From Shigella phage vB_SdyM_006, in sequence record MK295204: DNA of 64,000 nt; one strand, 5' to 3'. The notes below the pieces were generated by a model, which made no database searches, was not told where the DNA came from, and was given only the letters and a program-made list of their open reading frames with translations. Shown here one piece after another: positions 9,921 to 61,190 of this stretch (its first letter is position 1; each line of letters starts with the position of its first letter). A program made the position numbers and the translations under genes.

Positions 9921-9935
9921 AAGTCCACTCCTTTA

Positions 9936-9943
9936 TAAATACA
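9936..9943 (+). promoter_or_regulatory. T4-type late promoter TATAAATA (for gene 53 operon)
   Basis: Exact TATAAATA 29 nt upstream of gene 53 start. Confidence 0.6.
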
Positions 9944-9953
9944 TATAATAATA

Positions 9954-9961
9954 TTTATAAT
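9954..9961 (-). promoter_or_regulatory. T4-type late promoter TATAAATA on minus strand (for gene 4-2-3)
   Basis: Exact TATAAATA on minus strand about 34 nt upstream of gene 4 start; divergent from the plus-strand late promoter. Confidence 0.6.
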
Positions 9962-43831: not shown

Positions 43832-44237
43832 CTAAAATATCATTAAGCATAGGACCAATGACATCCCAATTTAAGCCACCATTAGAACACCCTGGTTTAG
43901 GCAGGAGAACTCTTTTAAAATTGTTATTAGATACTATCTCCATTAATTCTAATGCACTCTTACGTATCAGGTCTTTATCAGACTTGTTATACCAATCATG
44001 TTTAGTAGGAAATGATATTAAATTAATGTTATTATATTTCGTAAGAATTCTGCATACATGGCCGTATTGGATTAAGGATTTAGCCATGATTAAGTCTAAA
44101 TTAGGAACCTTCAACGAAAAGAGACGGGCAATTCCGGCTCCCATAACAGCTCTTTTATTTTTCTTGATATTCATGTTTGTTGTAATGCAAATAGCATCAC
44201 AAGGGATATCAAGAATATTTCCAGATACTATTTTCAT
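43803..44237 (-). CDS. putative macro-domain protein (ADP-ribose binding/hydrolase-like)
   Basis: Motif resemblance to macro domains: DAICITTNMN...AVMGAGIA and LLPKPGCSNGGL; unverified. Confidence 0.4.
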   Translation of the reverse strand: MKIVSGNILDIPCDAICITTNMNIKKNKRAVMGAGIARLFSLKVPNLDLIMAKSLIQYGHVCRILTKYNNINLISFPTKHDWYNKSDKDLIRKSALELMEIVSNNNFKRVLLPKPGCSNGGLNWDVIGPMLNDILDDRIHIIER

Positions 44238-44656
44238 AAAGCTTCTTTTAAAACTTCTATAGCATGCTTAATTTCAAAAGGGATACCTTCTGATGGATGC
44301 TGGCGAATGTTATCGTCAATATGACTAAAATCCATGCCAATTACACGGACTTTATATTTTTGCTCACTATCAAATTCTGATATATTAGAACCCCAAGTGT
44401 TTGATGATGTAACTTCTTTAGTCTCAAAATAAGTACATCCACAATGACAATATTCGTGCCAAAAATCACAGTCTTTATCAAATAAAGGGTGGTCTTCGCG
44501 AAGAGTTAAATATACCGCATAACTCCAATCCGGACGACCATCATTAAATAAAGCTTTATAACTAGGTGGTAATCCTGTAAACCATGAAGTAACTTCAATA
44601 GCTTCGCCTTTCTTTTTATCTGCATGAACAGTGTATACATATTTTTGAATAGACAT
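44234..44656 (-). CDS. hypothetical Cys/His-rich protein
   Basis: ORF in track; CDFWHEYCHCGC cluster suggests metal binding. Confidence 0.45.
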   Translation of the reverse strand: MSIQKYVYTVHADKKKGEAIEVTSWFTGLPPSYKALFNDGRPDWSYAVYLTLREDHPLFDKDCDFWHEYCHCGCTYFETKEVTSSNTWGSNISEFDSEQKYKVRVIGMDFSHIDDNIRQHPSEGIPFEIKHAIEVLKEAL

Positions 44657-44854
44657 TTATTTTACCTCAATAATAGTGAGTTCAGTATCTTCTGTCAAAT
44701 CACAAAAGTCAAAAGCCAATGCAGCAATACCTGGGTATTCTGATTCGTCAATAATACATTCAGTATTATTATTTTTGATGTCTAAGGCTAATTGATAATT
44801 AGACGTAGTAAATCCAAGTTCAAGTTCTTCGCACCATACGGTATACTTTTTCAT
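44657..44854 (-). CDS. hypothetical small protein (tandem paralogue 1)
   Basis: 65 aa; shares WCEE...GF.T..YQLA...ELT.IEVK pattern with the adjacent 64-aa ORF. Confidence 0.5.
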   Translation of the reverse strand: MKKYTVWCEELELGFTTSNYQLALDIKNNNTECIIDESEYPGIAALAFDFCDLTEDTELTIIEVK

Positions 44855-46115: not shown

Positions 46116-46200
46116 ATTATTCTCACAGTTGCGAATTGATGATGTGTATACTATATTATAAAATAGTGTTTGTAAACATCTAAAATAATTTAAAATAAAT

Positions 46201-46229
46201 GTTTACTTTTGCTGTCATTATGATATTAT
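46201..46229 (+). promoter_or_regulatory. sigma70-like early-type promoter inside a repeated promoter-RBS-start cassette (-35 GTTTAC, 17 bp, TGa-TATTAT)
   Basis: Cassette tgtttacttttgctg...tattatatacatattgaaac...ggagtatattATG also occurs at 60771-60845 and 61096-61168 on the minus strand. Confidence 0.55.
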
Positions 46230-46271
46230 ATACATATTGAAACGAAACATGAAAAACAAATGGAGTATATT

Positions 46272-46616
46272 ATGAATAAGACACAAATCAATGCAGTTTT
46301 AAAAACTTTAGGTTATGGTAATTTACGTTATTCTAATGGTAAAACATACCGCAGAGGAAACTCTATGGTTAAAGGTTTTCATTTAATTTCTACTGGTGCA
46401 TGTATGGTGACTTCACCAGAAACACAAAAATTTAGTGATCTTGTTAATGAGTTAAAACAACATTTTGAATTACAATCATATTATGACAATTGCATGGCAA
46501 TATTTGTGACAGGAAAATTAAAAATTGTTGTTTGTTTAACAAATTTTAATACATACGGTGGCTTAAACCCAGATTATAAAACATGGTTTGCATCTGTTAA
46601 TATTGAAAAGTTATAA
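46272..46616 (+). CDS. hypothetical protein
   Basis: Start set at the cassette ATG (MNKTQ...) 8 nt after GGAG; lone plus-strand gene among minus-strand genes. Confidence 0.5.
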   Translation: MNKTQINAVLKTLGYGNLRYSNGKTYRRGNSMVKGFHLISTGACMVTSPETQKFSDLVNELKQHFELQSYYDNCMAIFVTGKLKIVVCLTNFNTYGGLNPDYKTWFASVNIEKL

Positions 46617-46621
46617 AACAA

Positions 46622-46650
46622 AAATGGGACCGTAAGGTCCCATTTTCAAA
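46622..46650. terminator. bidirectional terminator (ATGGGACC-GTAA-GGTCCCAT)
   Basis: 8-bp stem; T-runs on both strands; sits between convergent genes. Confidence 0.6.
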
Positions 46651-47560
46651 TTAATCTTGTTACAGCTCCTATTCCTCCTCCAGCACCACCTAATCTTGTT
46701 AAATTTCTTAATGAAGAGCTTAAAGAGTTTTCTTCTGAAATTGTATCTATGGCACCAATTGCTTTTGATTCTAACCAATCAAGAGCTGCTTGCCTACCGA
46801 CAGAACCTACCTGCATCACCCTGTATGCGAATGTAACATCAAAAACAGCAATAGTATTATTATCTTCATATGAAAGTTCAGGAGCACCTACCGACATAGG
46901 AACACACCCTGTGAACATGGCAACAGTATGTGGAAGACCGTTTCTATTGTGTAAATTAACCTGGATATCGGCTTCAACATCTATAGGTAAAGCACGTAGT
47001 CCTGTGATTGGGTCTTCAACTGAATTCACCCAATCTTGCATAGCTCGATAATTACTTGCTTCTGAATCCATCCTAAACGAAATTATCAACGGGTCATATT
47101 CTCTAGATAGAACTTTTATATTAGGTGAATTATGATTTTTATCCATCTCATAAGATAGTCTGTTTTCTGGTAATTTGACAGAATAAACCATTAACCCAGA
47201 TGTTGGAAATGCCATATTAAAGAAATCTAATAGATAAGTCCCTACTTCAAATTCTCCTAATAATGATTGAACCACACGATTAGACATGGCTCCTAAAAGA
47301 TATTTAGAAACACCAGATTTTCTCACTAGTTTTTGAGTACCAGCAACAACTAGACTTGATACTGCACTAGTTACATCATTTTGAGATATTCCAAGAAAAT
47401 CTGTATCTATAGGTAAATTGTTAAACAAAAAACCACCAAAATTATCTAAAAGCTCATTAGTTTTTGATGATGGGGCTGTGGCAAAAACAACACTAAACAT
47501 GTTTGTTCTTTGGAAGTCAAGATTGACAGCTTGGCTTTTAAATTCTTCTAATGTATACAT
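46646..47560 (-). CDS. 54: baseplate tail tube initiator gp54
   Basis: 304 aa (T4 320 aa), synteny 29-48-54. Confidence 0.65.
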   Translation of the reverse strand: MYTLEEFKSQAVNLDFQRTNMFSVVFATAPSSKTNELLDNFGGFLFNNLPIDTDFLGISQNDVTSAVSSLVVAGTQKLVRKSGVSKYLLGAMSNRVVQSLLGEFEVGTYLLDFFNMAFPTSGLMVYSVKLPENRLSYEMDKNHNSPNIKVLSREYDPLIISFRMDSEASNYRAMQDWVNSVEDPITGLRALPIDVEADIQVNLHNRNGLPHTVAMFTGCVPMSVGAPELSYEDNNTIAVFDVTFAYRVMQVGSVGRQAALDWLESKAIGAIDTISEENSLSSSLRNLTRLGGAGGGIGAVTRLI

Positions 47561-48603
47561 TATAACAATCCTTCTGCAAACAAAGTTCCACGATTTAGTG
47601 TTAAAATCTCTCTAAACGTTATTTCAAGAGTAAACGTACTTGGTAAATTTGGGGCCATGGCTAGACCATTAAAATGTCCATTAGGAGATTTGTCAAATCT
47701 TATACTAGAAATCTGGGCTGGTCCAAATATATCAGTTCGGCCATCATAAGAAGATGTTTTACCAAAATTTCGTATAACCCATATTGTTGGGTTACTTACA
47801 ACAAGAACATTAGTTAAAAAACTTGTAATATTTTCCAATATTGTTCCTGAAGTATCAGCACCGTCTGGGGTATTAGGATTTATTAATGTTGTTTTATACC
47901 ATTCATCAATAGCGGCTTTAATTTCTTTAGCAAATTTAGACACACCTGTTTCACCATAAGAGAAATAACTAAATATTTCGTAAATATACAAAATTTGTAT
48001 AAGGTCTTGTGGAGTCCTTGGTGTTAAATGCCAGGTAAAAACTTTAGTTCTATTATCCGCTCCAGCATACATAGATCTAGCTGTAGTATAAATTTGTTCG
48101 CCTTTATCAGCCATAATTCCTTGTGTAATCGAATCTAATGCACCAAAAACAGCCGTTGACGCAACATTACTCAAAGCACCTGTTACGCTACCACCACCTT
48201 TAGTTAATAAAGAATCTCCAACATCATTAAATCTATGAGAAATGTTATCTACGTCAGATTGACTTCTTGGCATTAATATATTAGCAACAGATTCTTGACT
48301 AAAGGTGGTTGTCCCACCTTTTTTAGAAAAATCAATATTAATTGCGTCAACGGCATTTTGTTTTTTTCTAAAGTCTCTTAATGAGCCTGTATCGCGTGCA
48401 TTATAATTATATGCAGTAAATAACAGCCCGTTTTTATATAAGTCATTAAGTCTAAAATCTAAAGCATTATCTGTACCAGAGGCTCGTTCTGCTGGAAACT
48501 GAGCCACTAATGTTTTGGTTTGAGTATTTGTTGGATTAGAAGACCCAGCAGATATTTTTGTTCCTATTTTCTCTACTTCTTCATCCAGAACTTTTATTTT
48601 CAT
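47560..48603 (-). CDS. 48: baseplate tail tube junction protein gp48
   Basis: 347 aa (T4 364 aa), synteny. Confidence 0.65.
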   Translation of the reverse strand: MKIKVLDEEVEKIGTKISAGSSNPTNTQTKTLVAQFPAERASGTDNALDFRLNDLYKNGLLFTAYNYNARDTGSLRDFRKKQNAVDAINIDFSKKGGTTTFSQESVANILMPRSQSDVDNISHRFNDVGDSLLTKGGGSVTGALSNVASTAVFGALDSITQGIMADKGEQIYTTARSMYAGADNRTKVFTWHLTPRTPQDLIQILYIYEIFSYFSYGETGVSKFAKEIKAAIDEWYKTTLINPNTPDGADTSGTILENITSFLTNVLVVSNPTIWVIRNFGKTSSYDGRTDIFGPAQISSIRFDKSPNGHFNGLAMAPNLPSTFTLEITFREILTLNRGTLFAEGLL

Positions 48604-50324
48604 TAATTAACCTCTAAAGCTTTATACATGCCAGGAGCAGCATATCCTGTTACAGGATTTTGTTGAATAACAGTCTTATTATTAGCTACATTGTTTTGGA
48701 CATTAGCTGTATTTGTGGTCGTTTGAGATGATGTTTCTGTTGTTTCTATATTATTGATATTTTCTGCACTTGTGTAAGCTTGAGATTCTTTAGGATCTTC
48801 AGGTTTAATAGATGGGATCTGCTCTAATAACAAATCTGATCTATCTAATGCATCTATTCCTAATTTATAATAATCCGAATCGACTTCAACATCTTGGTTA
48901 TCAACAATAGAACTTGCAAGTTCTCTTAATTCGCCAGCTATTTTAGTTAAAGCCTCTGGGTTATTTCTATGAGCTTCAGATAAGGCCATTAATTGATTTA
49001 ATCTAGCTTCAGTTTTTACTTGTTCTTCTATATCGCCCATTTCTGGTGCAGATTCATCTTGCTTTTTAGCTAAAGCAATAGCCCTATCAGCATCTTCTCT
49101 ACTTATAACATTATTTTTTACATAAGTGTTTGCAGCTTCTTCTATAGACCCACCTGTAAATCTTGCTCTAGCTTTTATCATTGATAAATAGCCTTCATCA
49201 TCACTTTTGGCGGTATTTCTAATGTCGTTACCACGAACTTTAGCCATTAACTTAAGTTCATCTTCGTTAGGCATATAACCTGTATTTTTATTATATGCTT
49301 CTATAGTTGCAACTTCTAATTCGTCAGCCCAGTCGTCCTGCCCTATAGCTCGTAATAATGAAGATAACATTTTTCCTAATGCGTACTGTAAGCCTTGTAA
49401 AAGATTTTCTAAAACGTTTACCATACCTTTTACAATGGCTAATGCTAAATTACCAAAATCGCCTTCTTTCCAGAATTTTTTGACATCTTCTAGTGTAGCA
49501 AATATAGAACGCAATATCGGGGCTAGTGGTCCAAGTTTTTCTTCAAAATCGTCAAAGGCTTCATTAAATAATTTACCCCAATATTTAAAATGAATCATTA
49601 TAAGGTCCATAGCTAATACTATAGCCAACATTATTGCTGCCCATTTGGCAGCAAACAACGCCGCTGTTACAGTGTATTTAAACAACATATCAGCTATTCT
49701 GTTTGTCATCCCATAAGCAGATTTGAACCCAGTTTTAACATTTTTATTTAAAGAATTTAAAACTTTAGATAAAGAGTCTTTTTCTTTATTGTCATCTTTA
49801 GGTTCTTTCTTTTTCTTCTCTTCTTCTGGGACCGGTGCTCTATCGACGTCATCTCTTCTAATAACAAGGTCTTTAATAGCAGATTCTAGTTTATTATCTT
49901 CAACCGGAACAGGGAGTTTAGAAAAAGCTTCTTCGGTCTCAGAAACTTCTGGTTCTACAATTTCCTGTTTTTCTGGTTTAAATTTTTCTTTTAACATATT
50001 ACTTAATTTAGATATGTTCGAAGAAAAAGAATTTGATAATTTAGAATTACTTGTTGCTAAGTCTTTTAAGTTATTATTTGTTTCTTGACTAGAATCTATT
50101 AATAACTCAACACCAGCTTGAACATCTTCTACAGAAGAAACAACTTTAGAAGTCCCAGATTCTACGGTTTCTGCAACTAGCTCAATACCATTTGATAAGT
50201 CATCTAAAGAATCAGAAACATTAAGCATAGAGTTAGCAACATTTTCTTGGCCTTTAGATTCTTTAGATATTTTATTTTTTTCTTCTATTACTTTATTTCT
50301 TCTAAACGAATCAGGTGTTTTCAT
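48603..50324 (-). CDS. 29: baseplate hub / tail length determinant (tape measure) gp29
   Basis: 573 aa (T4 590 aa), low-complexity coiled-coil-rich, synteny. Confidence 0.7.
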   Translation of the reverse strand: MKTPDSFRRNKVIEEKNKISKESKGQENVANSMLNVSDSLDDLSNGIELVAETVESGTSKVVSSVEDVQAGVELLIDSSQETNNNLKDLATSNSKLSNSFSSNISKLSNMLKEKFKPEKQEIVEPEVSETEEAFSKLPVPVEDNKLESAIKDLVIRRDDVDRAPVPEEEKKKKEPKDDNKEKDSLSKVLNSLNKNVKTGFKSAYGMTNRIADMLFKYTVTAALFAAKWAAIMLAIVLAMDLIMIHFKYWGKLFNEAFDDFEEKLGPLAPILRSIFATLEDVKKFWKEGDFGNLALAIVKGMVNVLENLLQGLQYALGKMLSSLLRAIGQDDWADELEVATIEAYNKNTGYMPNEDELKLMAKVRGNDIRNTAKSDDEGYLSMIKARARFTGGSIEEAANTYVKNNVISREDADRAIALAKKQDESAPEMGDIEEQVKTEARLNQLMALSEAHRNNPEALTKIAGELRELASSIVDNQDVEVDSDYYKLGIDALDRSDLLLEQIPSIKPEDPKESQAYTSAENINNIETTETSSQTTTNTANVQNNVANNKTVIQQNPVTGYAAPGMYKALEVN

Positions 50325-50829
50325 TTTGGAATAATCCTAATATGTCGTCGCCATAAACAACTTTGTCTTCAAGGTTTATAGCAATACTTTTTCCAAGTTC
50401 ATCAGCCCATTTATACACAAAAGCTGGCATACTACCAAAATCAACTTTTTCTAAACATAATGTTTCTAAAAGTTCTTTAGCTGAAGTGAATCTTTCTCCT
50501 GGTAATATGTCTCTAAATTTATATTCTTTTCCTTGATAAGTAAATTTAGGTGTTGGTAATAGATAAACATCATTTATTGAGTAAGTTTTATCTTTATATA
50601 CGAATGTGTCTGTACATTTACCATTAAATTCGGCTAAATGAAGCAAGACTAAATGAGCTTCTTTAAATGACAAATTTTTATCTACAGAATCAAGAACTAT
50701 TTTTAAAGTATCTTCTGGAGATTTAGCTTCTTTGAATTTGTCATAATAATTAAGTCCGAGTTTAGGAATTGTTAATTCTTTTCCATTTATATTAATCTTC
50801 TTCAGTGGAAGAATTATCTTTAATTTCAT
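50311..50829 (-). CDS. 28: baseplate hub distal subunit gp28
   Basis: 172 aa (T4 177 aa), synteny. Confidence 0.65.
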   Translation of the reverse strand: MKLKIILPLKKININGKELTIPKLGLNYYDKFKEAKSPEDTLKIVLDSVDKNLSFKEAHLVLLHLAEFNGKCTDTFVYKDKTYSINDVYLLPTPKFTYQGKEYKFRDILPGERFTSAKELLETLCLEKVDFGSMPAFVYKWADELGKSIAINLEDKVVYGDDILGLFQNENT

Positions 50830-51937
50830 TTTTTACCTTAATATGATCTACTGGTTTAAGAATTTTACTATTACTGAACATGTAAATATGTGTAAAACTC
50901 TGATTATTAGACATTTCATGTATAACAGAATCTACATAAAAAGTACTTAAGAACTGATTCTTAGGGTCATAGAATTCTAATTTATTTCCAGGCGTTATAT
51001 CAAAATCCCCATAAGTTGTACATTTTGCATAGGAATCATATTGAGCCATTGTATTTAATTTAGTCGCTTCTTCATACCCATTTCTAAATAACTGATCTGA
51101 ATACCCGCCATTTCTCGAAACTAAAATAGAATTTTCGCCATTTCCATTCACTATCCTAGTACAAGTTTTATCAATCATACTAAAAGAATATATAGTCGAG
51201 TTTTCGTATGGGTTTCTATTATGAGAATTTGTTTTTGTTATCCATTCAAAATCATATGCAAGTGGATATTCAAGTTGATCTGCAAATTGTCCAACCATTA
51301 ACGGTTCTCCGACTACCATTTCCTTAACTTTTGAATTAATGATTTGTTGGAAATCTGTGACGTGGATCCCATTAAAATCATCCCAAACCAAAGCAAACAT
51401 ATCAGATGCAACAGAAATACCAGTATCTCTAACATAGTCCATATATTCCTTAATTCCAAGAACCCATGGAACTAAAGGAACGTGAATATTCGTGCCAGTG
51501 ATCGTAGGTTTCAATAAAGGGGTGTCGGTATATAAAACATTTATCATTTCTTCTATAGTCTCTGTGGCGTTCTTGAAGAACACTCGACTAAATTTAAGAT
51601 TTTTATTTTTATACGGTGGAATCAATTGCATTGTAATAATGTTATCGCCTTTTTGATCAACTGATACAGAAGAATATTTTACGGCATAAATTCTATTTTT
51701 AGTTATTGATGTATTTGCATTACCTACAGAAATTTGGATTATTTGGTCTCCATCTAATTTAGTATGCATATTTTTATGATCGTAAATTTGTAACATCCCT
51801 TCGTTGGTCCCGTATAAATCATCTCTAATTGTCAACGAAGTAAAAGTTCCTGCTAATTCTATAAATCGGTTTTCTAACCAAGCATCATAACTTTGGTATA
51901 ATTTTATCGATATATTAGGATAACCCACCTTTTGCAT
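50792..51937 (-). CDS. 27: baseplate hub subunit gp27
   Basis: 381 aa (T4 391 aa), synteny. Confidence 0.7.
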   Translation of the reverse strand: MQKVGYPNISIKLYQSYDAWLENRFIELAGTFTSLTIRDDLYGTNEGMLQIYDHKNMHTKLDGDQIIQISVGNANTSITKNRIYAVKYSSVSVDQKGDNIITMQLIPPYKNKNLKFSRVFFKNATETIEEMINVLYTDTPLLKPTITGTNIHVPLVPWVLGIKEYMDYVRDTGISVASDMFALVWDDFNGIHVTDFQQIINSKVKEMVVGEPLMVGQFADQLEYPLAYDFEWITKTNSHNRNPYENSTIYSFSMIDKTCTRIVNGNGENSILVSRNGGYSDQLFRNGYEEATKLNTMAQYDSYAKCTTYGDFDITPGNKLEFYDPKNQFLSTFYVDSVIHEMSNNQSFTHIYMFSNSKILKPVDHIKVKNEIKDNSSTEED

Positions 51938-52688
51938 GTTTTTTGTCCTTTAAATCTTTTTCTATTAATGCTAATGTGATTGTCCTGTTCATTGGGGTCA
52001 TTTTCTCTATATCGTTTAGAGAATAGCCTTGTTTAACCATGATATGATTAATTTTATAAAATGCTATAATTTCCTCTTCAGACAAAATTATTTTAAACAG
52101 GTCTAAAATGTTTCTATATACCATTTCGTGAGTATCACAACAACTAAATTTAACAGGGATATAAATTGGATATATCTCTTTTATTATTTGTTCAAAATCA
52201 TCTAGAGAAATAACAGACATAACAAGATTTTTATTCTCTTGGTCTAAATCTTCCCATATATAAGAACCATTATTGTCTTCAATTTTATATATACAGCTGT
52301 CAAATAATTTTTTTATATCAGTTGTCATTATATCTGTAAAATCAAAATGAATTTTTATTCCTGAAGTTTCTAGAACAGGTCTTTTAAGTCTTTTCAATTC
52401 TAAGTTTAAAAAGGTCTTCTTTTCTTTACCACATTTAGGGCATTTAAAACGTATAGGAAGAACAGATTTACCAATAGATGAAGTAAACCAAATTATAAAT
52501 GCATAAGCTCTATATATTTTTGGCATATAAGGAAATGACTCTTCTAATAATTCATCTAGTATTTGTTCTGCTTCTTCTTGATTTTTTTCTATTTCACTCC
52601 GTACAAATAATAATTGTAAATAATCATCATTAGTAAACTGACGAATTCTGTATGTTTTTTCTGGTGTGACTATTCTTATTATGTTCAT
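51915..52688 (-). CDS. 51: baseplate hub assembly protein gp51
   Basis: 257 aa (T4 249 aa), synteny, divergent from gene 26. Confidence 0.6.
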   Translation of the reverse strand: MNIIRIVTPEKTYRIRQFTNDDYLQLLFVRSEIEKNQEEAEQILDELLEESFPYMPKIYRAYAFIIWFTSSIGKSVLPIRFKCPKCGKEKKTFLNLELKRLKRPVLETSGIKIHFDFTDIMTTDIKKLFDSCIYKIEDNNGSYIWEDLDQENKNLVMSVISLDDFEQIIKEIYPIYIPVKFSCCDTHEMVYRNILDLFKIILSEEEIIAFYKINHIMVKQGYSLNDIEKMTPMNRTITLALIEKDLKDKKHAKGGLS

Positions 52689-52704
52689 AGTGTCTCCTCT
52701 TATT

Positions 52705-52712
52705 TATTTATA
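52705..52712 (-). promoter_or_regulatory. T4-type late promoter TATAAATA on minus strand (gene 51-27-28-29-48-54)
   Basis: Exact TATAAATA on minus strand, overlapping the divergent plus-strand late promoter. Confidence 0.55.
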
Positions 52713-52716
52713 AATA
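52709..52716 (+). promoter_or_regulatory. T4-type late promoter TATAAATA (gene 26-25)
   Basis: Exact TATAAATA on plus strand 18 nt upstream of gene 26 ATG. Confidence 0.55.
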
Positions 52717-52733
52717 GATAAAAAGGAGACACT

Positions 52734-53318
52734 ATGTTTGAAATAACATGTAACGACATAACATACAACGCTAGATATTTCACTCTAGACGAATACGAGG
52801 ACGTTCTTAATAAAATAACTGATAATAATATTAAAGACGCCATTAGTGGGCTCTTAATTGATTGTATAGACTCCTACGATACAAACTTGCCTAAACACTA
52901 TGCAGAATGTATTTTTCTTAAATTATGGGCTCACAGTTTAGGTGGAGTAACTAAAGAACTAAATGATATTTTTGTTAATTTTAATTATATAGAAACACCT
53001 AAAGAAAAAGGATTTATTTACAAATTAGATGGATTGAGTCTCAAAATGAGATATCCAAAATTATTTGAAGACTCTGATAAATTAGAAATGGTCATAAATT
53101 GTATTGACTCAGTATTATTAGAAGACCAAACAGAAATTAAAGCTTCAGAGCTTTCTTCAGATGATTTAAACGTTTTATATTCATACTTGACGAAAGACGT
53201 AATTTTTTCGTTAAGAGACGAATTACTTAGACCTAAACCGTATATCGCTTTTCCTGTTGATGACGAAATTAAAACAATAGAAGGGTTTAAAAATTTATTA
53301 GAGGTGATAGATGAGTAA
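52734..53318 (+). CDS. 26: baseplate hub subunit gp26
   Basis: 194 aa (T4 208 aa), synteny. Confidence 0.6.
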   Translation: MFEITCNDITYNARYFTLDEYEDVLNKITDNNIKDAISGLLIDCIDSYDTNLPKHYAECIFLKLWAHSLGGVTKELNDIFVNFNYIETPKEKGFIYKLDGLSLKMRYPKLFEDSDKLEMVINCIDSVLLEDQTEIKASELSSDDLNVLYSYLTKDVIFSLRDELLRPKPYIAFPVDDEIKTIEGFKNLLEVIDE

Positions 53319-53697
53319 AATGAATGTTTTATATTCTGACTTAGACCCTAAAATGGAAAAAGGCTGGGATAAAGACCTGCATAAAGTCGTAGGAGATAGG
53401 GCTGTCAAAAATTCTATTCTAGGAATAATTAGTACTAGGAAAGGGTCTAGACCCTTTGACCCAGAATTTGGGTGTAATATAACAGACCAATTATTCGAAA
53501 ATATGAGTCCATTAATAGAAGACACTATAGAGCGATCTATAGTTTCGGCTATTAAAAATTATGAGCCAAGAGTACAAAGATTAAAAGTTTCTGTTACTGC
53601 ATTGTATGATTCAAATTCTATAGTTGTAGATATTATTTTTTCTATTGTAGATAATCCAGACACATTAGAACAGATAAAAGTTCAATTATCAAAATAG
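53311..53697 (+). CDS. 25: baseplate wedge protein gp25
   Basis: 128 aa (T4 132 aa); gpW/gp25-like pattern (ILGIISTRKGSRPFDPEFGC). Confidence 0.75.
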   Translation: MSKMNVLYSDLDPKMEKGWDKDLHKVVGDRAVKNSILGIISTRKGSRPFDPEFGCNITDQLFENMSPLIEDTIERSIVSAIKNYEPRVQRLKVSVTALYDSNSIVVDIIFSIVDNPDTLEQIKVQLSK

Positions 53698-53704
53698 TTT
53701 ACTA

Positions 53705-53871
53705 TAGTTATTAATTTATTACTTAATAGTTATATATAATATATAAAGAACTTAATAAAATAATAAAAATTCTGGAGCTGCGCTCCAGATTTCTTTAGAA
53801 ATAGTAACATATAGTTATTAATTTATTACTTAATAGTTATATAGAATATACTATACTTTTAATAAATTAAT
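53705..53871. repeat. copy B (inverted) of the ~166-bp element; hairpin CTGGAGC-TGC-GCTCCAG at 53771-53787
   Basis: Reverse complement identical to 8491-8656 apart from the 3-nt hairpin loop. Confidence 0.9.
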
Positions 53872-53936
53872 TTACTAGAGTTACTATTAATAGGCTATTA
53901 TAATAAAATGGTTATAATGAATCATTTGGAGGAACT

Positions 53937-54347
53937 ATGAATTTAGAAGAATTACAAACAATGTTATCAGAAGATTTAAGAATTGATCCATTAAAACTTC
54001 AATATGAAGCTGCAAATAATCCAACATTATATGGAAAATGGTTAAAAATTTATTCTGATATAAAGAAAGGAATTATTTCTTATGAAGCTAATAAGAAAAA
54101 ACTTTTAAAACAAAGATTAGACCATTATACTGGACGTGGTGATGAAGTGTGTATGGACTTATATGAAAAATCAGAACTTAAAACTGTTATTGCAGCTGAC
54201 CCAGAAATTTTGAAAACACAAACATCTGTGGAATATAGAACATTATTATTGGATTTTGCATCAAAAGCTTTAGATGCTATTAAAGCCCGTGGATTTAGTA
54301 TTAAGCACATTCTAGAATGTAGACAATTTGAGGCAGGAACAAAATGA
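53937..54347 (+). CDS. uvsY: recombination mediator UvsY
   Basis: Strong match to remembered T4 UvsY (KLQYEAANN, YSGRGD/YTGRGD, LLDF.S.ALDAIK.RGF.IKHI). Confidence 0.9.
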   Translation: MNLEELQTMLSEDLRIDPLKLQYEAANNPTLYGKWLKIYSDIKKGIISYEANKKKLLKQRLDHYTGRGDEVCMDLYEKSELKTVIAADPEILKTQTSVEYRTLLLDFASKALDAIKARGFSIKHILECRQFEAGTK

Positions 54348-54715
54348 CAAGCATTGATGTATTGAATCAACAGATTGATTTAGCTTCTTCAATTGAAGGA
54401 ATTACTGACAAAACTCCTGTAATAAAATCAATGAAACACTATTTAAGAGATATAAATAATATTAAGCCAATGGCTGAAGGTATACTTAAAAGTAATAAAT
54501 TACCTGATTATACATTATCTCAAATCATTGAAGAACTAAAAGGATGGGCTATGGACCATATTTGTGTAGTTTGTAAAAAGCCTATTGATGAGAGTTTAGT
54601 TATCTATAACGATAATAATGAACCTGTTCATCCGGGGCCTTGTTATAATTTTGCTAAAGAACAACCTGTAACAGAATCAGGTCATTCTTTAAATGAAGTA
54701 GAATTATTAATGTAA
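54344..54715 (+). CDS. hypothetical protein (uvsY-adjacent; possible Zn-ribbon C..C...H..C)
   Basis: ORF overlapping the uvsY stop; HICVVCKKPID...HPGPC. Confidence 0.5.
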   Translation: MTSIDVLNQQIDLASSIEGITDKTPVIKSMKHYLRDINNIKPMAEGILKSNKLPDYTLSQIIEELKGWAMDHICVVCKKPIDESLVIYNDNNEPVHPGPCYNFAKEQPVTESGHSLNEVELLM

Positions 54716-54720
54716 AAAAT

Positions 54721-54747
54721 AAAAGACGAGGGTTACTCGTCTTTTTC
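54721..54747. terminator. bidirectional terminator (AGACGAG-GGTTA-CTCGTCT)
   Basis: Hairpin with A-run upstream and T-run downstream, between convergent genes. Confidence 0.6.
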
Positions 54748-54954
54748 TGTTTCTAAATCTTCTAATTCTAATCTCTTGCCTTCTAAGGCATCTCTTATAG
54801 AGATATCATCAGTATCTTTAATTTCTAATTCTTTTATACGTTTAGAATAATATTTTTCTAATTCGTCTAAACCAGCCAATGTTTGACATTCTCTTATTTT
54901 GTTCATAAAAGTTTCGACACTAGCTTCGATTAAAATATCTTTAAATTTTAACAT
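54733..54954 (-). CDS. UvsW.1-like small acidic protein
   Basis: 73 aa, directly downstream of uvsW on the same strand. Confidence 0.55.
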   Translation of the reverse strand: MLKFKDILIEASVETFMNKIRECQTLAGLDELEKYYSKRIKELEIKDTDDISIRDALEGKRLELEDLETEKDE

Positions 54955-56453
54955 AATTTTACCTCTCTCATAGAATAATCAAATTGTTCACTTGCATACC
55001 TTTCTATACGTTCTAAAGCGTGTTTTAATGCATAATTTAAATGTACATATTTCTTTTTAGAATTTTTAGATTTAGGTTTTACACCCATGTCATCTACAAT
55101 GTCCCAAAGAACACCTTCAGCTTTAGAACCATGTAATCTAAGAACACGTCCAATAGATTGTAATACGGTTACTTTTGATTTAATTGGGTGTGCAAATATA
55201 ACATGGTGTAAATTTTTTATAGATACACCAGCACTGAAAACACCATAAGAAGCGACTACAACCATCCCTGAGCGTTTTTCTGCTAAGGCCTTTATAATAT
55301 CTCTATCTTTGTCTTTAACTTCTCCTGCGATAAAGAAGACGTTTTCTTCGCCATATATAGCCTTACATGCCTCGTATAGATCTTTACCATGGGCTATTCT
55401 ATCAAACATAACAAACACATTTTCATTTTTAGATGCTAATTTACATGCAAGTTTAGCTATCCATTCATTACGCTGTTTAGCTTTAATAATGATTTTAATT
55501 TCATCTTGATACGAAAATCCTTTAACTTTTTCTGTAAACGCATCCGGGTATCTTAAAAACAAAGTATTAATTTTAAGTTTAGACACTTGTCCTGCTTCCA
55601 TTAGTTCAGCCGTGGACACTGGTTTGTATATATCTCCAAATAATCCGATATATTGCATTACATTAGCTTTGCCATCTTTAACGGTTCCTGTTAGCCCGAA
55701 TTTAAATTTACAGTTGTTTAATCCGTTAATAATAGTACTAATACTTTTACCAGTCGCTAAATGACACTCATCATTCATTAACATTCCAAATTGACTAAAC
55801 CATTCTTTTGGTTGCTTAATAGCTGTCTGCCAGGTTGATACGTAAACCAAAGCATCAGAATCTTTAGCTGTACCGCCTTTTATTCCTAATAACATTTCTT
55901 TAGAAAATAGTCTATAGTCGACTAAGTCATCAATCATTTGTTTAACAAGAATAGTTGTTGGAACTAAAATTAAAACTTTACCTTGAAAGTTTTCTATATA
56001 ATAACGTGCTAAGAGCGCCTGGATCAACGATTTACCAGCTGATGTAGGTAAATTCAATAAAGCTCTATTTTGTGTTAAGCCTTTAACTACAGAATCTTTT
56101 TGATACCAATGAGGCGTTATCTTAGATGACCCAGAATATATTTCTTTAGAATCTATCCAATCAGAAACTTCTTTTTCAGTAATATCGCCATTATCATATA
56201 TTTTAGGATCCGTTTCTACAGTATAGTCCATATTAGAAGCAAACTTTTTAACATAGTTCACAAGCCCGTATGGTAATAAGCCGTCATACCCTAAAATTCT
56301 AATCTTGCCGTCCCATTGACCATATTTAAATTTTGGATTAAATTGGTACCCAGGAGTTTCGAAAGAGAAATAATCTCTTAATTCAAAGAACACAGAATCT
56401 TCACACTCGATTTTTACACTACTATAATCGTAAAACTTTAATTTAATATCCAT
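54948..56453 (-). CDS. uvsW: UvsW DNA/RNA-DNA helicase
   Basis: Extensive match to remembered T4 UvsW (MDIK..F.D.S.V.I.CE, helicase motif I NLPTSAGKSLIQALLARYY, DECHLATGKS, VLQSIGRVLR); start set at MDIKLKF (56453) with RBS AAGGTGA. Confidence 0.9.
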   Translation of the reverse strand: MDIKLKFYDYSSVKIECEDSVFFELRDYFSFETPGYQFNPKFKYGQWDGKIRILGYDGLLPYGLVNYVKKFASNMDYTVETDPKIYDNGDITEKEVSDWIDSKEIYSGSSKITPHWYQKDSVVKGLTQNRALLNLPTSAGKSLIQALLARYYIENFQGKVLILVPTTILVKQMIDDLVDYRLFSKEMLLGIKGGTAKDSDALVYVSTWQTAIKQPKEWFSQFGMLMNDECHLATGKSISTIINGLNNCKFKFGLTGTVKDGKANVMQYIGLFGDIYKPVSTAELMEAGQVSKLKINTLFLRYPDAFTEKVKGFSYQDEIKIIIKAKQRNEWIAKLACKLASKNENVFVMFDRIAHGKDLYEACKAIYGEENVFFIAGEVKDKDRDIIKALAEKRSGMVVVASYGVFSAGVSIKNLHHVIFAHPIKSKVTVLQSIGRVLRLHGSKAEGVLWDIVDDMGVKPKSKNSKKKYVHLNYALKHALERIERYASEQFDYSMREVKLC

Positions 56454-56466
56454 TACTTTCACCTTG

Positions 56467-56474
56467 TTATAAAT
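56467..56474 (+). promoter_or_regulatory. T4-type late promoter TATAAATA (inh-hoc)
   Basis: Exact TATAAATA 35 nt upstream of the 56509 ATG. Confidence 0.5.
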
Positions 56475-56480
56475 ACATAT

Positions 56481-56488
56481 ATATTTAT
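56481..56488 (-). promoter_or_regulatory. T4-type late promoter TATAAATA on minus strand (uvsW)
   Basis: Exact TATAAATA on minus strand 28 nt upstream of uvsW ATG. Confidence 0.5.
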
Positions 56489-56508
56489 ACAAAGCCTAAG
56501 AGGACATT

Positions 56509-57222
56509 ATGAAAATTGATCAACAATATATTGATTCTTTAACTGAAGAATATACTTCAGGCGAAATTGATAGAAAAACAGCTAAACAAAAATTAACAGA
56601 TTATGCTAAAGAATCTTTTAATTTTGATTTAAACAAACAAAAAAGTTTTGAGAATATGATTGTTCAGCTTAAAGAAATGATCGATAATTATGTAGAACCC
56701 GAATTAGAAGAACAAGATGGAATTTCTATTAAAGATCTAATTACCGCAGCTGACCAATTAGATGGTAAAAGTGTTTTTAATGATGCCAATGAAGAAGCAT
56801 TAGAATTACTTTCAGATGTTTCTTATGATGGAATTAAACCAGATTTGGTAATTAAAACACCCCAACCACAAATTACTAAAGAAGAAATTATTGATAAACC
56901 AGAAAAATCTTTAATAAGTAAGAATTTAGAAGTTAAAGAAGAAATTAAATCCCAAGAATATATGCCGGAATCGGCAAAATATGTTCTTCCTGATGGGTTC
57001 TCTCCAACTATTACATTAATTGGTAAAACTCCTGGATATTATACTCTTCCATGGTGGATTTATCAATGGATTTTAGAAAATGAAGATTGGAAAGATAGGC
57101 CAGAAGAATGCCCCGAGTATTCAGCTATTAATATTTTAAAATCATTGATTTACTTTATTAATAGAGATGGACAGGTCAAAATTAGAGAAACAAGAAATTC
57201 AAGATTTTATACCCTAAAATAA
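56509..57222 (+). CDS. hypothetical protein, possibly Inh-like (prohead protease inhibitor) by position
   Basis: 237 aa between uvsW and hoc, as inh is in T4; no sequence-level confirmation. Confidence 0.35.
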   Translation: MKIDQQYIDSLTEEYTSGEIDRKTAKQKLTDYAKESFNFDLNKQKSFENMIVQLKEMIDNYVEPELEEQDGISIKDLITAADQLDGKSVFNDANEEALELLSDVSYDGIKPDLVIKTPQPQITKEEIIDKPEKSLISKNLEVKEEIKSQEYMPESAKYVLPDGFSPTITLIGKTPGYYTLPWWIYQWILENEDWKDRPEECPEYSAINILKSLIYFINRDGQVKIRETRNSRFYTLK

Positions 57223-57231
57223 GGATTATAT

Positions 57232-58056
57232 ATGAGTATAGTACTAAAATTAACACCAGAGAACCCTAAAATTACTATAGGAGAATCTCAAGAATTCACC
57301 ATGACTACAGAGAATCAAACAGATGAGACTCTAAAATATGAATGGTATATTAATGAAGACATATATGAAGCCACAAATAAAAATATGACATATACACCTG
57401 ATAAATCAGGTGAATTTATTATAAAATGTAAAGTATCTTCTTTAGGATTAGAAGGGGAAACCGTTTTAGGCGAAGAATCCACCACTTTAACTGTAAATCT
57501 TAAAACTATAACCGATTTGACGACAAATATTACAGGCCCAAAAGAAGCAGAATATGGCGAAGAATTTGAACTTGTTGTAAATGCTGAAACTACAGCAGAA
57601 TCTCCTAAATATACATATAAATGGTCTAGTGGTGAAACTACAAAAAAAATAAAGGTAATTGAATCTGAAGAAGGTGAAAAAACTTTTACATGTACAGTAA
57701 CATGTAAATCAACTAATTATGAACCCGCTACTTCAACATCAGAACATAAAGTTTCTATATCAAAACCCGTAGTTCCTGAACCAGATCCGTCTTGTGAATC
57801 ATGTAGATATATTCATCCTTTAGACCATAGAGAATCAGCATATTTATGGGTAGGATACTGGGTACTAGAAGAAATAGAAAAAGCCGTGGAAGAAGGAATT
57901 GATTGGAAGAAGCCAGATGATACTGATCTAAAATATAAATGTGATTTGAAGACCCTCGCATTTATGTTAGAAAAATACCCTAATGTAGATGTACAAGAAT
58001 CAAGAAATGGATATATCTTATCTAAAGACGATATTGAAAATGGGGTTATTTACTAA
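57232..58056 (+). CDS. hoc: Hoc-like outer capsid protein (two Ig-like domains + capsid-binding C-terminus)
   Basis: C-terminus matches remembered T4 Hoc (HPL.HR.SAY.W.G.WV..EI.K..EEG.DWK..D.D.KY, VDVQESRNGYI); N-terminal repeated Ig-like units. Confidence 0.8.
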   Translation: MSIVLKLTPENPKITIGESQEFTMTTENQTDETLKYEWYINEDIYEATNKNMTYTPDKSGEFIIKCKVSSLGLEGETVLGEESTTLTVNLKTITDLTTNITGPKEAEYGEEFELVVNAETTAESPKYTYKWSSGETTKKIKVIESEEGEKTFTCTVTCKSTNYEPATSTSEHKVSISKPVVPEPDPSCESCRYIHPLDHRESAYLWVGYWVLEEIEKAVEEGIDWKKPDDTDLKYKCDLKTLAFMLEKYPNVDVQESRNGYILSKDDIENGVIY

Positions 58057-58063
58057 ACAAAAA

Positions 58064-58090
58064 AGGGACCAATTGGTCCCTTTTTATTTT
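58064..58090. terminator. bidirectional terminator (AGGGACC-AATT-GGTCCCT)
   Basis: Hairpin with A6 upstream and T-rich tract downstream. Confidence 0.6.
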
Positions 58091-60773: not shown

Positions 60774-60813
60774 AATATACTCCGTTGTTTCCGTGTGTTG
60801 TTTCAATATGTAT

Positions 60814-60842
60814 ATAATAACATGTCTACAGCAAAAGTAAAC
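60814..60842 (-). promoter_or_regulatory. sigma70-like early-type promoter, cassette copy 1 (-35 GTTTAC, 17 bp, TGt-TATTAT)
   Basis: Minus strand reads tgtttac-ttttgctgtagacatgt-tattat; identical core to the copy at 61136-61164. Confidence 0.55.
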
Positions 60843-60861
60843 ATGTTATTGTGGCTTTTTA

Positions 60862-61098
60862 TTAAATAATTCTAGCTATCAATGCAGAAGTATTAATACT
60901 AACAGTAAATTCCATTGGCGTTTCATCTTCTTCAGAACTAATTACCATTGAATGGATTTCGGTAACACCAGATACGGATAAAACTCTATCTTCAATAATA
61001 GTTATATGTGAAGAATATTCAAAAGGACCATATGGGTCTCCATCTAATCTAGATGTATCTTTAAGCATTTTTAACAATTCAGCACTTGATAATTTCAT
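60862..61098 (-). CDS. hypothetical small protein
   Basis: Start set at cassette ATG (MKLSSAELLK...) after GGAGTATATA; the track ORF extends upstream into the promoter. Confidence 0.45.
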   Translation of the reverse strand: MKLSSAELLKMLKDTSRLDGDPYGPFEYSSHITIIEDRVLSVSGVTEIHSMVISSEEDETPMEFTVSINTSALIARII

Positions 61099-61135
61099 TA
61101 TATACTCCATTTTCGTATGTTGTTTCAATATGTAT

Positions 61136-61164
61136 ATAATAACATGTCTACAGCAAAAGTAAAC
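61136..61164 (-). promoter_or_regulatory. sigma70-like early-type promoter, cassette copy 2
   Basis: Same sequence as copy 1. Confidence 0.55.
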
Positions 61165-61167
61165 AAA

Positions 61168-61190
61168 AAAGAGCCTTTCGGCTCTAAATA
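61168..61190 (-). terminator. intrinsic terminator on minus strand (AGAGCC-TTTC-GGCTCT; T-run on minus)
   Basis: Hairpin followed by TTTTTTGTTT on minus strand, downstream of the ligase gene. Confidence 0.5.

What the first reader, a model, noticed from the sequence alone, without database searches (positions are those of the whole stretch)
52690..52733. Divergent overlapping late promoters inside a palindrome that gives both genes the same RBS-start context
Between divergent genes 51 and 26, a 10-bp inverted repeat (AGTGTCTCCT / AGGAGACACT) supplies each gene with the identical context AGGAGACACT-ATG. Between the arms, the sequence TATTTATTTATAAATAGATA holds overlapping TATAAATA late-promoter motifs on both strands. 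Similar back-to-back late promoters occur at 9936-9961 (gene 53 vs gene 4) and 56467-56488 (inh-hoc vs uvsW).
Basis: seen in the sequence. Interest (0 to 1): 0.4.

Follow-up and report, generated by a model that had tools for sequence, protein, structure and literature searches.

The report
Two-way late promoter between genes 51/26
This is the ordinary, conserved two-directional late promoter and ribosome-binding region between two baseplate genes of a T4-like Proteus phage; the only unusual point is that in this genus the 51-bp region has become an almost perfect palindrome.

Summary
The window is a Bragavirus, a T4-like Proteus phage 99.9% identical to SJ_PmiM. Genes 51 (-) and 26 (+) start 45 bp apart. 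Two TATAAATA boxes on opposite strands (52705-12 -, 52709-16 +) share TATA and form the palindrome TATTTATAAATA. The identical contexts AGGAGACACT-ATG form 13-bp inverted arms.

The same 12-mer sits at the 51/26 junction in T4 and in about a dozen other genera. Both promoters are already annotated in GenBank for the congener Pm5461, which also encodes a gp55-type late sigma factor. The promoter reading is therefore supported and already known, although no transcript 5' ends were available.

The perfect arms are specific to Bragavirus. In other genera the arms pair only through their Shine-Dalgarno sequences, with no sign of co-evolution.

The predicted late starts (52722 +, 52699 -) lie inside the palindrome, so late mRNAs carry one arm and an open ribosome site. 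Any read-through RNA would fold into a hairpin of -24 to -26 kcal/mol that buries both sites. This is the logic known for T4 genes e, soc, 49 and I-TevI, and cited for gene 26. Whether it is selected here is unproven.

gp51 and gp26 are paralogs (same Pfam family).

The parts
51915..52688 (-). Gene 51 (baseplate hub assembly chaperone, 257 aa). Its start codon is CAT on the + strand at 52686-52688.
   Evidence: ORF; Pfam PF12322, E 3.6e-43; annotated in SJ_PmiM and Pm5461.
52689..52698 (-). Left arm, which is the translation initiation region of gene 51. It reads AGGAGACACT on the - strand: SD AGGAG plus the 5-nt spacer ACACT.
52699..52699 (-). Predicted late transcription start for 51-27-28-29-48-54 (G on the - strand). 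The leader is 11 nt.
   Evidence: Inferred from the rule that TATAAATA lies at -13..-6 (PMC1524935). Not measured.
52701..52708 (-). Variant box AATAAATA (A at -13) overlapping the consensus - box. Its predicted start would fall inside the SD, so it is probably not productive.
   Evidence: A(-13) variants are known in T4 (PMC2988020).
52705..52712 (-). Late promoter box TATAAATA for gene 51.
   Evidence: annotated as a promoter at the homologous position in Pm5461.
52709..52716 (+). Late promoter box TATAAATA for gene 26.
   Evidence: annotated as a promoter at the homologous position in Pm5461.
52705..52716 (.). 12-bp perfect palindrome TATTTATAAATA, made of the two boxes sharing the central TATA. 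This is the conserved core of the element.
   Evidence: The same 12-mer lies at the 51/26 junction in T4.
52722..52722 (+). Predicted late transcription start for 26-25 (A). The leader is 12 nt.
   Evidence: Inferred from the -13..-6 rule (PMC1524935). Not measured.
52724..52733 (+). Right arm, which is the translation initiation region of gene 26 (AGGAGACACT).
52686..52736 (.). The whole 51-bp near-perfect palindrome: 13-bp outer helix, TTAT/ATAA segment, then the inner palindrome. It is predicted to form a hairpin in any RNA that spans it.
52734..53318 (+). Gene 26 (baseplate hub chaperone/subunit, 194 aa), a paralog of gene 51.
   Evidence: Pfam PF12322, E 3.2e-30; BLASTP of the N-termini; reciprocal HMM hits.
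53311..53697 (+). Gene 25 (baseplate wedge subunit), the second gene of the rightward late unit.
   Evidence: phrog_261, E 6e-58.
53771..53789 (.). Bidirectional terminator-like hairpin. It is the likely end of the 26-25 late transcript and a barrier to leftward read-through.
46619..46648 (.). Terminator hairpin at the convergent junction after gene 54. It is the likely end of the leftward 51...54 late unit.
9934..9959 (.). Second double late promoter, between gp4 and gp53: TATAAATA(+), 10-bp spacer, TATAAATA(-). The box order is opposite to that of the 51/26 site.
56468..56489 (.). Third double late promoter, between uvsW and inh-hoc: TATAAATA(+), 6-bp spacer, TATAAATA(-). The box order is opposite to that of the 51/26 site.

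Best explanation
The site is the shared control region of two divergent late operons of a T4-like (Bragavirus) phage. The leftward operon is 51-27-28-29-48-54 and the rightward one is 26-25.

Promoters. RNA polymerase carrying the phage late sigma factor gp55 recognises TATAAATA on either strand. The two boxes share their central TATA, forming TATTTATAAATA, so only one orientation can be occupied at a time (inferred). Both operons therefore draw on one symmetric site. Transcription is predicted to start about 6 bp beyond each box, at 52722 (+) and 52699 (-).

Translation. The resulting leaders are 11-12 nt and consist essentially of AGGAG-ACACU-AUG. The two palindrome arms are simply the two ribosome-binding regions.

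Consequence of the palindrome. Both starts lie inside it, so each late mRNA contains one arm and its ribosome site is open. Any RNA that reads across the region from outside, in either direction, contains both arms. Such RNA folds into a hairpin of -24 to -26 kcal/mol that buries the SD and AUG of the downstream gene. Read-through or antisense RNA is thus predicted to be translationally silent for both genes.

What is shown and what is inferred. Shown: the motifs, their conservation, the gene identities, and the thermodynamic predictions. Inferred: the start sites, the mutual exclusion, and the effect on translation.

Evolution. The double promoter is ancestral to T4-like phages. The perfect arms are an elaboration specific to Bragavirus, and whether they are selected is uncertain. 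My estimates are about 0.9 for the promoter/ribosome-site reading and about 0.35 that the extended hairpin is itself a selected function.
For: - Motifs and geometry.
- Half of all TATAAATA copies lie 16-33 nt upstream of same-strand starts, against 3.9% expected.
- No other consensus or A(-13) late box occurs on the coding strand of either operon between 46000 and 54000.
- The same 12-mer lies at the 51/26 junction in T4 and in 13 of 16 phages sampled across genera. It also lies at 17 gp51/gp26 junctions found in IMG/VR and in PSTCR6 and metagenome locus L118.
- Both promoters are annotated in GenBank KP890823. They were predicted with MEME (PMC4923195).
- The congener encodes a gp55-type late sigma factor (phrog_234, E 1e-63) and the gp45 clamp.
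- The intergenic region is 44/45 identical between phages whose third codon positions are only 67-70% identical.
- The hairpin folds at -26/-24 kcal/mol, z about -7.
- P(unpaired) over SD..AUG is 0.56 and 0.40 in the predicted late mRNAs, against 0.001 in read-through RNAs in both directions.
- Precedent: T4 genes e, soc, 49 and I-TevI have late promoters inside an RBS-sequestering hairpin (PMC3014915, section 29). PMC2988022, section 12, lists genes 25 and 26 among such cases, citing Gruidl et al. 1991.
- An early-type promoter at about 46202-46229 points towards gene 26 through antisense 54...51.
Against: - No 5'-end data exist for this phage.
- Outside Bragavirus the two arms pair no better than arms taken from different phages: -9.2 vs -8.8 kcal/mol, permutation p = 0.21. 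Hairpin z-scores there are only 0 to -3.7. The extended helix is therefore not a conserved requirement.
- Within the genus the arms are invariant, so there is no covariation to examine.
- Conservation extends about 14 nt into both coding regions, so ordinary constraint on translation initiation could explain it.
- Read-through must pass terminator-like hairpins at 46619-48, 53771-89 and 54721-45.
Confidence: 0.8

Rival explanations
1. The perfect symmetry of the arms has no function of its own. Both genes need a strong SD at good spacing, which already makes the region a quasi-palindrome. The remaining identity (ACACT) arose by chance or by quasi-palindrome 'correction', meaning template switching during replication. 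The hairpin in read-through RNA is then an unselected side effect. The promoters and ribosome sites still work as described.
For: - No arm co-evolution in 23 other 51/26 junctions (p = 0.21) or in 36 unrelated TATTTATAAATA junctions (p = 0.37).
- Extended palindromes appear only sporadically: Bragavirus and L054.
- The gene 51 arm (GGAGACACTATG) resembles the widespread gene 51 context GGAGATACTATG seen in Cronus and L078. Gene 26 contexts vary. This fits a one-way copying of the 51 arm onto the 26 side.
- Terminators limit read-through.
- Templated quasi-palindrome mutation is an established mechanism, first described in T4 rII (my own knowledge, not checked here).
Against: - Only 3 of 3321 gene pairs share >=10 nt of upstream context, and at least one of the other two is a duplicated cassette.
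- All 10 spacer positions (ACACT, twice) are unchanged between phages with about 32% divergence at third codon positions.
- A T4 precedent for RBS sequestration at gene 26 exists (PMC2988022).
Confidence: 0.5
2. The palindrome is a DNA-level element. It could be a binding site for a dimeric DNA-binding protein that modulates late transcription (for example a DsbA-like protein), or a cruciform that affects promoter opening.
For: - The region is a 51-bp near-perfect palindrome. Each DNA strand folds at -14.1 kcal/mol, z = -8.
- T4 DsbA was reported to bind AT-rich sites overlapping two late promoters, with low affinity (PMC2988020, section 7).
Against: - The outer arms are fully explained as SD, spacer and start codon, and they are not conserved in other genera.
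- The inner palindrome is fully explained by the two consensus boxes.
- No candidate binding protein was identified.
- Extrusion of a cruciform with an AT-rich centre in replicating, nicked late phage DNA is speculative.
Confidence: 0.06
3. The TATAAATA boxes are chance AT-rich matches, and the real promoters of genes 51 and 26 lie elsewhere.
For: The total TATAAATA count in the window is not above the compositional expectation (21 vs 17.6). About half of the copies lie inside coding regions.
Against: - The exact 12-mer is conserved at this junction across genera whose gp26 proteins are only about 26-33% identical.
- There is strong positional enrichment upstream of start codons.
- No alternative late box serves either operon.
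- The 45-bp intergenic region leaves no room for other promoters.
Confidence: 0.04
4. The hairpin serves mainly as a processing or stability element, such as an RNase III-type target or a barrier to antisense RNA, rather than as a translational gate.
For: The helix is about 22 bp with small internal loops in either RNA orientation. Antisense ('both strands transcribed at different times') RNA is documented in T4 (PMC2988020).
Against: - No U-tract follows the helix in either direction, so it is not an intrinsic terminator.
- No evidence of processing is available.
- The helix is absent from other genera.
Confidence: 0.07

Closest known systems
The gene 51 / gene 26 intergenic region of phage T4 (orthologous locus)
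   Same: The same divergent genes, and the identical 12-bp double box TATTTATAAATA. The leaders are short (predicted 12 and 16 nt), with SD-bearing arms on both sides. A review lists T4 gene 26 among late genes whose RBS is sequestered in long transcripts (PMC2988022, citing Gruidl et al. 1991).
   Different: The T4 arms share only 8 bp (GCTCCTTT/AAAGGAGC). The predicted hairpin is -11.6 to -13.3 kcal/mol, z about -3, against -23 to -25 and z -8 to -9 here. The two T4 ribosome-binding contexts are not identical. The primary paper could not be read.
GenBank annotation of Proteus phage vB_PmiM_Pm5461 (KP890823), same genus
   Same: Two 8-bp 'promoter' features on opposite strands at exactly the homologous positions, overlapping by 4 bp. 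The intergenic sequence differs at one base.
   Different: The annotation rests on MEME motif discovery only (PMC4923195). It does not mention the palindrome or the identical ribosome-binding contexts.
T4 late-promoter-inside-hairpin translational control (genes e, soc, 49, I-TevI; Aeh1 mobE)
   Same: A helix buries the SD and/or AUG in long early or middle transcripts. A TATAAATA promoter sits so that the late transcript lacks the 5' arm and is translated (PMC3014915, section 29; PMC2988022, section 12).
   Different: The known cases act in one direction, on a late gene embedded in an early transcription unit. Here one hairpin would gate two divergent genes, its loop holds two promoters, and its 5' arm is the other gene's ribosome site. 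Read-through transcripts have not been shown.
The other double late promoters in this window (gp4/gp53, uvsW/inh) and the Gualtarvirus 51/26 junction
   Same: Paired TATAAATA boxes on opposite strands serve divergent late genes.
   Different: The box order is reversed: TATAAATA-N10-TATTTATA, TATAAATA-N6-TATTTATA, and TATAAATATTTATA in phages MP1 and PSTRCR_121. Each box therefore lies just downstream of the opposite start site. The leaders are longer and there are no extended arms.

Membership tests
T4-type (gp55-dependent) late promoter | Consensus TATAAATA, positioned at -13..-6 from the start, with no -35 element | tested here: met
   Exact matches on both strands at 52705-12 (-) and 52709-16 (+). 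The consensus and its position come from PMC1524935 and PMC2988020.
T4-type (gp55-dependent) late promoter | Lies immediately upstream of, and points towards, an orthologue of a T4 late (virion/assembly) gene | tested here: met
   The boxes lie 16 and 17 nt upstream of genes 51 and 26. Gene identities come from Pfam and PHROGs.
T4-type (gp55-dependent) late promoter | The phage encodes the late sigma factor gp55 and the sliding-clamp activator gp45 | tested here: met
   Shown in the congener Pm5461: phrog_234 late sigma factor, E 1e-63, and phrog_223 clamp, E 2e-77. These genes lie outside the 64-kb window itself.
T4-type (gp55-dependent) late promoter | Positional conservation of the box in related phages | tested here: met
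   The identical 12-mer lies at the same junction in T4 and in 13 of 16 sampled phages, plus 17 IMG/VR junctions.
T4-type (gp55-dependent) late promoter | Late, replication-coupled, gp55/gp33-dependent transcripts starting about 6 nt downstream of the box | not testable with these tools
   No RNA 5'-end data for this phage. The T4 dRNA-seq table is not held, and the T4 GenBank records carry no promoter features here.
RBS-sequestering hairpin with an embedded late promoter (T4 e/soc/49/I-TevI type) | A stable helix that includes the SD and/or start codon | tested here: met
   13-bp outer helix covering SD, spacer and AUG. Folding energy is -24 to -26 kcal/mol, z -6.9 to -9.4. P(unpaired) is 0.001 in read-through RNA.
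RBS-sequestering hairpin with an embedded late promoter (T4 e/soc/49/I-TevI type) | The late transcript starts inside the structure and lacks the 5' arm | tested here: met
   By geometry only. The predicted starts at 52722 and 52699 lie between the arms, and the predicted late mRNAs have P(unpaired) of 0.56 and 0.40 over SD..AUG. The start sites are inferred, not measured.
RBS-sequestering hairpin with an embedded late promoter (T4 e/soc/49/I-TevI type) | Longer (early/middle or antisense) transcripts actually read through the site | tested here: inconclusive
   An early-type promoter cassette at about 46202-46229 (+) points this way. However, terminator-like hairpins lie at 46619-48, 53771-89 and 54721-45. 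No RNA data are available.
RBS-sequestering hairpin with an embedded late promoter (T4 e/soc/49/I-TevI type) | The helix is maintained among relatives (conservation or covariation) | tested here: not met
   The arms are invariant within the genus, which is uninformative. Outside it, same-phage arms pair no better than cross-phage arms (p = 0.21), and the hairpins are weak.
RBS-sequestering hairpin with an embedded late promoter (T4 e/soc/49/I-TevI type) | Translation from long transcripts is reduced relative to late transcripts | not testable with these tools
   This needs reporter fusions or toeprinting.

The most novel reading that the evidence does not exclude
In Bragavirus the 51-bp palindrome is a selected, two-directional translational gate. 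A single hairpin has two late promoters in its loop and two ribosome-binding sites as its arms. It would keep both paralogous hub-chaperone genes, and the operons behind them, silent on any early, antisense or read-through RNA. The two late mRNAs, each starting inside it, would be fully open. It would have arisen by copying the gene 51 initiation region onto the gene 26 side.
Probability: 0.3. Interest if true: 0.4.

Novelty: already known. Interest (0 to 1): 0.2.

Why it matters
Mostly this is a sound annotation rather than a discovery. It places the single late promoter pair that drives the whole baseplate-hub gene set of a Proteus phage, and shows that this pair is the conserved T4 arrangement.

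Three modest points go beyond that.
- Fifty-one base pairs encode two promoters and two ribosome sites with almost no spare nucleotides. This could serve as a compact natural design for two-way late expression.
- The double box TATTTATAAATA is a reliable landmark for the 51/26 junction across T4-like phages.
- If the genus-specific perfect arms prove functional, they would extend the T4 'late promoter inside an RBS hairpin' mechanism to a symmetric form that controls two genes.

Tried and rejected
- Experimental start sites. The T4 dRNA-seq preprint (10.1101/2024.04.04.588121) reports 150 T4 start sites, but its table is not among the held supplements.
- Primary literature. Miller et al. 2003, Gruidl & Mosig 1986 and Desplats et al. 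2002 are not held. Gruidl et al. 1991, the primary source for gene 26 RBS sequestration, was seen only as a citation.
- T4 GenBank records NC_000866 and AF158101 carry no promoter features at this junction.
- A literature search for the 12-mer TATTTATAAATA found nothing relevant.
- Intermediate Bragavirus relatives, sought to look for compensatory changes in the arms. IMG/VR held only the two known genomes.
- Overall enrichment of TATAAATA was rejected as an argument, because the count equals the compositional expectation. Only placement is informative.
- A family-wide selected hairpin was rejected by permutation tests.
- A terminator role was rejected because no U-tract follows the helix.
- AGGAGACACT as a commonly used initiation context in this phage was rejected. 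It occurs only at these two genes.

Full report
WHAT THE WINDOW IS. Megablast of 51900-53700 matches Proteus phages SJ_PmiM and phiP4-3 at 99.8-99.9% and PM2 and Pm5461 at about 85%. All belong to the genus Bragavirus, family Straboviridae, that is, T4-like phages. The ORF at 51915-52688 (-) and the ORF at 52734-53318 (+) are annotated as baseplate hub assembly protein and hub subunit. They are flanked by orthologues of gp27, gp25 and UvsY.

THE OBSERVATION. The 51 bases at 52686-52736 read CAT-AGTGTCTCCT-CTTATT-TATTTATAAATA-GATAAAA-AGGAGACACT-ATG. With both start codons the perfect inverted repeat is 13 bp. The repeat finder reports 16 nt at 94% complementarity plus an inner 14-nt palindrome. 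TATAAATA occurs at 52709-16 (+) and 52705-12 (-). The two boxes share TATA and together form the perfect palindrome TATTTATAAATA, present once in the window.

IS IT MORE THAN CHANCE? The raw number of TATAAATA copies is not informative: 21 found against 17.6 +/- 4.1 in shuffles. Their placement is informative. Ten of 21 lie 16-33 nt upstream of a same-strand start codon, where 3.9% of slots would be expected. Three of the four divergent gene junctions in the window carry a box on each strand. For the arms, only 3 of 3321 gene pairs share >=10 identical nt before ATG. One of the other two (46272/60773) belongs to a repeated early promoter-leader cassette. The pair at 44656/44854 was not examined further. 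AGGAGACACT occurs nowhere else in the window.

COMPARATIVE EVIDENCE FOR THE PROMOTERS. T4 has the same 12-mer at its 51/26 junction: CAT-AGATGCTCCTTTTATTC-TATTTATAAATA-TGATAAATAAAGGAGCTAAAT-ATG.
- I extracted the junction from 16 phages covering about a dozen genera, whose gp26 proteins are only 26-33% identical to this one. Thirteen have exactly TATTTATAAATA.
- A pattern scan of IMG/VR found 71 unique CTCC...TATTTATAAATA...GGAG sites. Local HMMs identified 17 of them as gp51/gp26 junctions.
- The nearest outgroup genus, Gualtarvirus (phages MP1 and PSTRCR_121), instead has TATAAATATTTATA, with the boxes in the opposite order. Phage PSTCR6 has the usual 12-mer.
- In GenBank KP890823 (Pm5461, same genus) both 8-bp boxes are annotated as promoters at the homologous positions. 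They were predicted with MEME (PMC4923195).
- That phage encodes a gp55-type late sigma factor and the gp45 clamp.
- Between the window and Pm5461/PM2 the 45-bp intergenic region is 44/45 identical, while third codon positions of the flanking genes are 67-70% identical.
- No other consensus or A(-13) box lies on the coding strand of either operon between 46 and 54 kb.

The interpretation 'divergent overlapping late promoters' is therefore well supported. It is also not new.

PREDICTED OPERATION. T4 late boxes lie at -13..-6 from the start site (PMC1524935). That places the starts at 52722 (A, +) and 52699 (G, -), 23 bp apart, with leaders of 12 and 11 nt that begin almost at the SD. T4 has similarly short predicted leaders (12 and 16 nt). 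The likely ends of the two units are the terminator-like hairpins at 53771-89 and 46619-48. Because the two boxes overlap, and each lies in the region the other promoter must melt, I infer that polymerase binding is mutually exclusive. Both hub operons would then draw on one symmetric site.

THE PALINDROME. The arms are the two ribosome-binding regions.
- As RNA, the region folds into a nearly continuous hairpin in either orientation: -26 and -24 kcal/mol, z about -7. As DNA it folds at -14.1 kcal/mol, z = -8.
- In predicted late mRNAs the SD..AUG stretch is largely open (mean P(unpaired) 0.56 and 0.40). In RNAs that read across the region from either side it is closed (0.001).
- This is the logic established for T4 genes e, soc, 49 and I-TevI. 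There a late promoter sits inside the 5' half of an RBS-sequestering hairpin (PMC3014915, section 29).
- One review lists genes 25 and 26 among such cases, citing Gruidl et al. 1991 (PMC2988022, section 12). I could not read the primary paper.
- An early-type promoter cassette at about 46202-46229 (+) does point through antisense 54...51 towards gene 26. Terminator-like hairpins stand in the way on both sides.

IS THE EXTENDED HAIRPIN SELECTED? The evidence is against a general requirement.
- Hairpin stability is -21 to -25 kcal/mol (z -7 to -9) in Bragavirus, -11.6 to -13.3 (z about -3) in T4, and weak elsewhere (z 0 to -3.7).
- Arm-arm duplex energy for the same phage is no better than for arms from different phages once Bragavirus is excluded: -9.2 vs -8.8 kcal/mol, permutation p = 0.21.
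- The same holds for 36 unrelated TATTTATAAATA junctions (p = 0.37). Only one of these, L054, is similarly palindromic.
- The baseline of about -9 kcal/mol is the unavoidable pairing of one SD with the complement of the other.
- Within the genus the arms are invariant, so there is no covariation to read. Conservation also runs about 14 nt into both genes, as ordinary initiation-region constraint would produce.
- The gene 51 arm resembles the common gene 51 context in other genera (GGAGATACTATG), whereas gene 26 contexts vary. This fits a one-way copying event, for example templated quasi-palindrome correction (my own knowledge, not tested here).

I therefore rate the hairpin's physical consequence as likely, and its status as a selected function at about 0.35.

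A DEEPER SYMMETRY. gp51 and gp26 both match Pfam PF12322 over its full length (E 3.6e-43 and 3.2e-30). Their N-termini align from the first residues, and HMMs built from one family hit the other at 1e-8 to 1e-19. Both are listed as hub assembly chaperones (PMC3004832). The locus is thus an ancient head-to-head duplication, and the palindromic control region lies on its axis.

THE TWO 'SIMILAR' SITES. Box pairs exist between gp4 and gp53 (9934-41 +, 9952-59 -) and between uvsW and inh-hoc (56468-75 +, 56482-89 -). The + box lies to the left of the - box, with 10- and 6-bp spacers. The predicted starts are 9947/9946 and 56481/56476. Each box falls in the first nucleotides of the opposite transcript, and the leaders are 23-28 nt. 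These sites are divergent late promoters but do not have the architecture of the 51/26 site.

VERDICT. The core feature is the known, conserved T4-type two-way late promoter at the 51/26 junction. The only unreported detail is the genus-specific perfection of the palindrome, whose function is unproven. Interest is low.

Noticed in passing
51915-52688 (-) and 52734-53318 (+): gp51 and gp26 are paralogs. Both match Pfam PF12322 over its full length, their N-termini align from residue 1-3, and HMMs of one family hit the other at 1e-8 to 1e-19. The locus is an ancient head-to-head duplication with the promoter palindrome on its axis.
   Followed up: yes
9934-9959 and 56468-56489: The other two double late promoters have the boxes in the opposite order (+ box left of - box) with 10- and 6-bp spacers. 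Both contain TATAAATACATATA. Each box is predicted to lie in the first few nucleotides of the opposite mRNA.
   Followed up: partly
about 46190-46274 (+), 60774-60863 (-), 61099-61188 (-): Three unrelated small ORFs share a roughly 70-nt upstream cassette: GTTTACTTTTGCTGT...TATTATATACATATTGAAAC...GGAGTATAT(T/A)ATG. It looks like a T4-type early promoter plus a conserved leader. The copy at 61098 is preceded by a terminator-like stem (GAGCCGAAAGGCTC followed by a T run). This resembles the repeated early promoter/stem-loop cassettes described in T4-type genomes (from memory, not checked).
   Followed up: partly
46646-58056, compared with T4 (L006): The block 54-48-29-28-27-51 | 26-25-uvsY | uvsW | inh-hoc is inverted and reversed in order relative to the 53...23 late block, compared with the T4 map. 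The identity of gene 23 at 37832-39382 was not verified.
   Followed up: no
L111 and L112 (Morganella phage MP1, Providencia phage PSTRCR_121), 51/26 junction: The nearest outgroup genus, Gualtarvirus, has the alternative 14-bp palindrome TATAAATATTTATA (boxes in reversed order, sharing TA) instead of TATTTATAAATA. The geometry of the double promoter has therefore flipped at least once at the same junction.
   Followed up: partly
IMG/VR loci L019-L110 (for example L054 near 1842, L105, L090, L053): At about 54 unique sites, CTCC...TATTTATAAATA...GGAG is flanked by divergent ORFs that are not gp51/gp26. L054 has a near-perfect palindrome of -22 kcal/mol like the Bragavirus one. The flanking genes and phage types were not identified.
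   Followed up: no
52701-52708 (-): A second, A(-13)-variant box AATAAATA overlaps the consensus - box by 4 bp. Its predicted start (about 52695) would fall inside the gene 51 SD.
   Followed up: no
53771-53789, 54721-54745, 58060-58085, 46619-46648: Terminator-like hairpins, scored on both strands except 46619-46648 (scan hit on the - strand only), sit at three convergent junctions and between gene 25 and uvsY. Fourteen terminator-like sites were found in 45.8-58.2 kb, against 3.9 +/- 2.1 in shuffles.
   Followed up: partly
44234-44656 (-) and 44657-44854 (-): Two adjacent small genes share 15 identical nt upstream of ATG (ATTGAGGTAAAATAA). Their proteins show no similarity to each other.
   Followed up: partly
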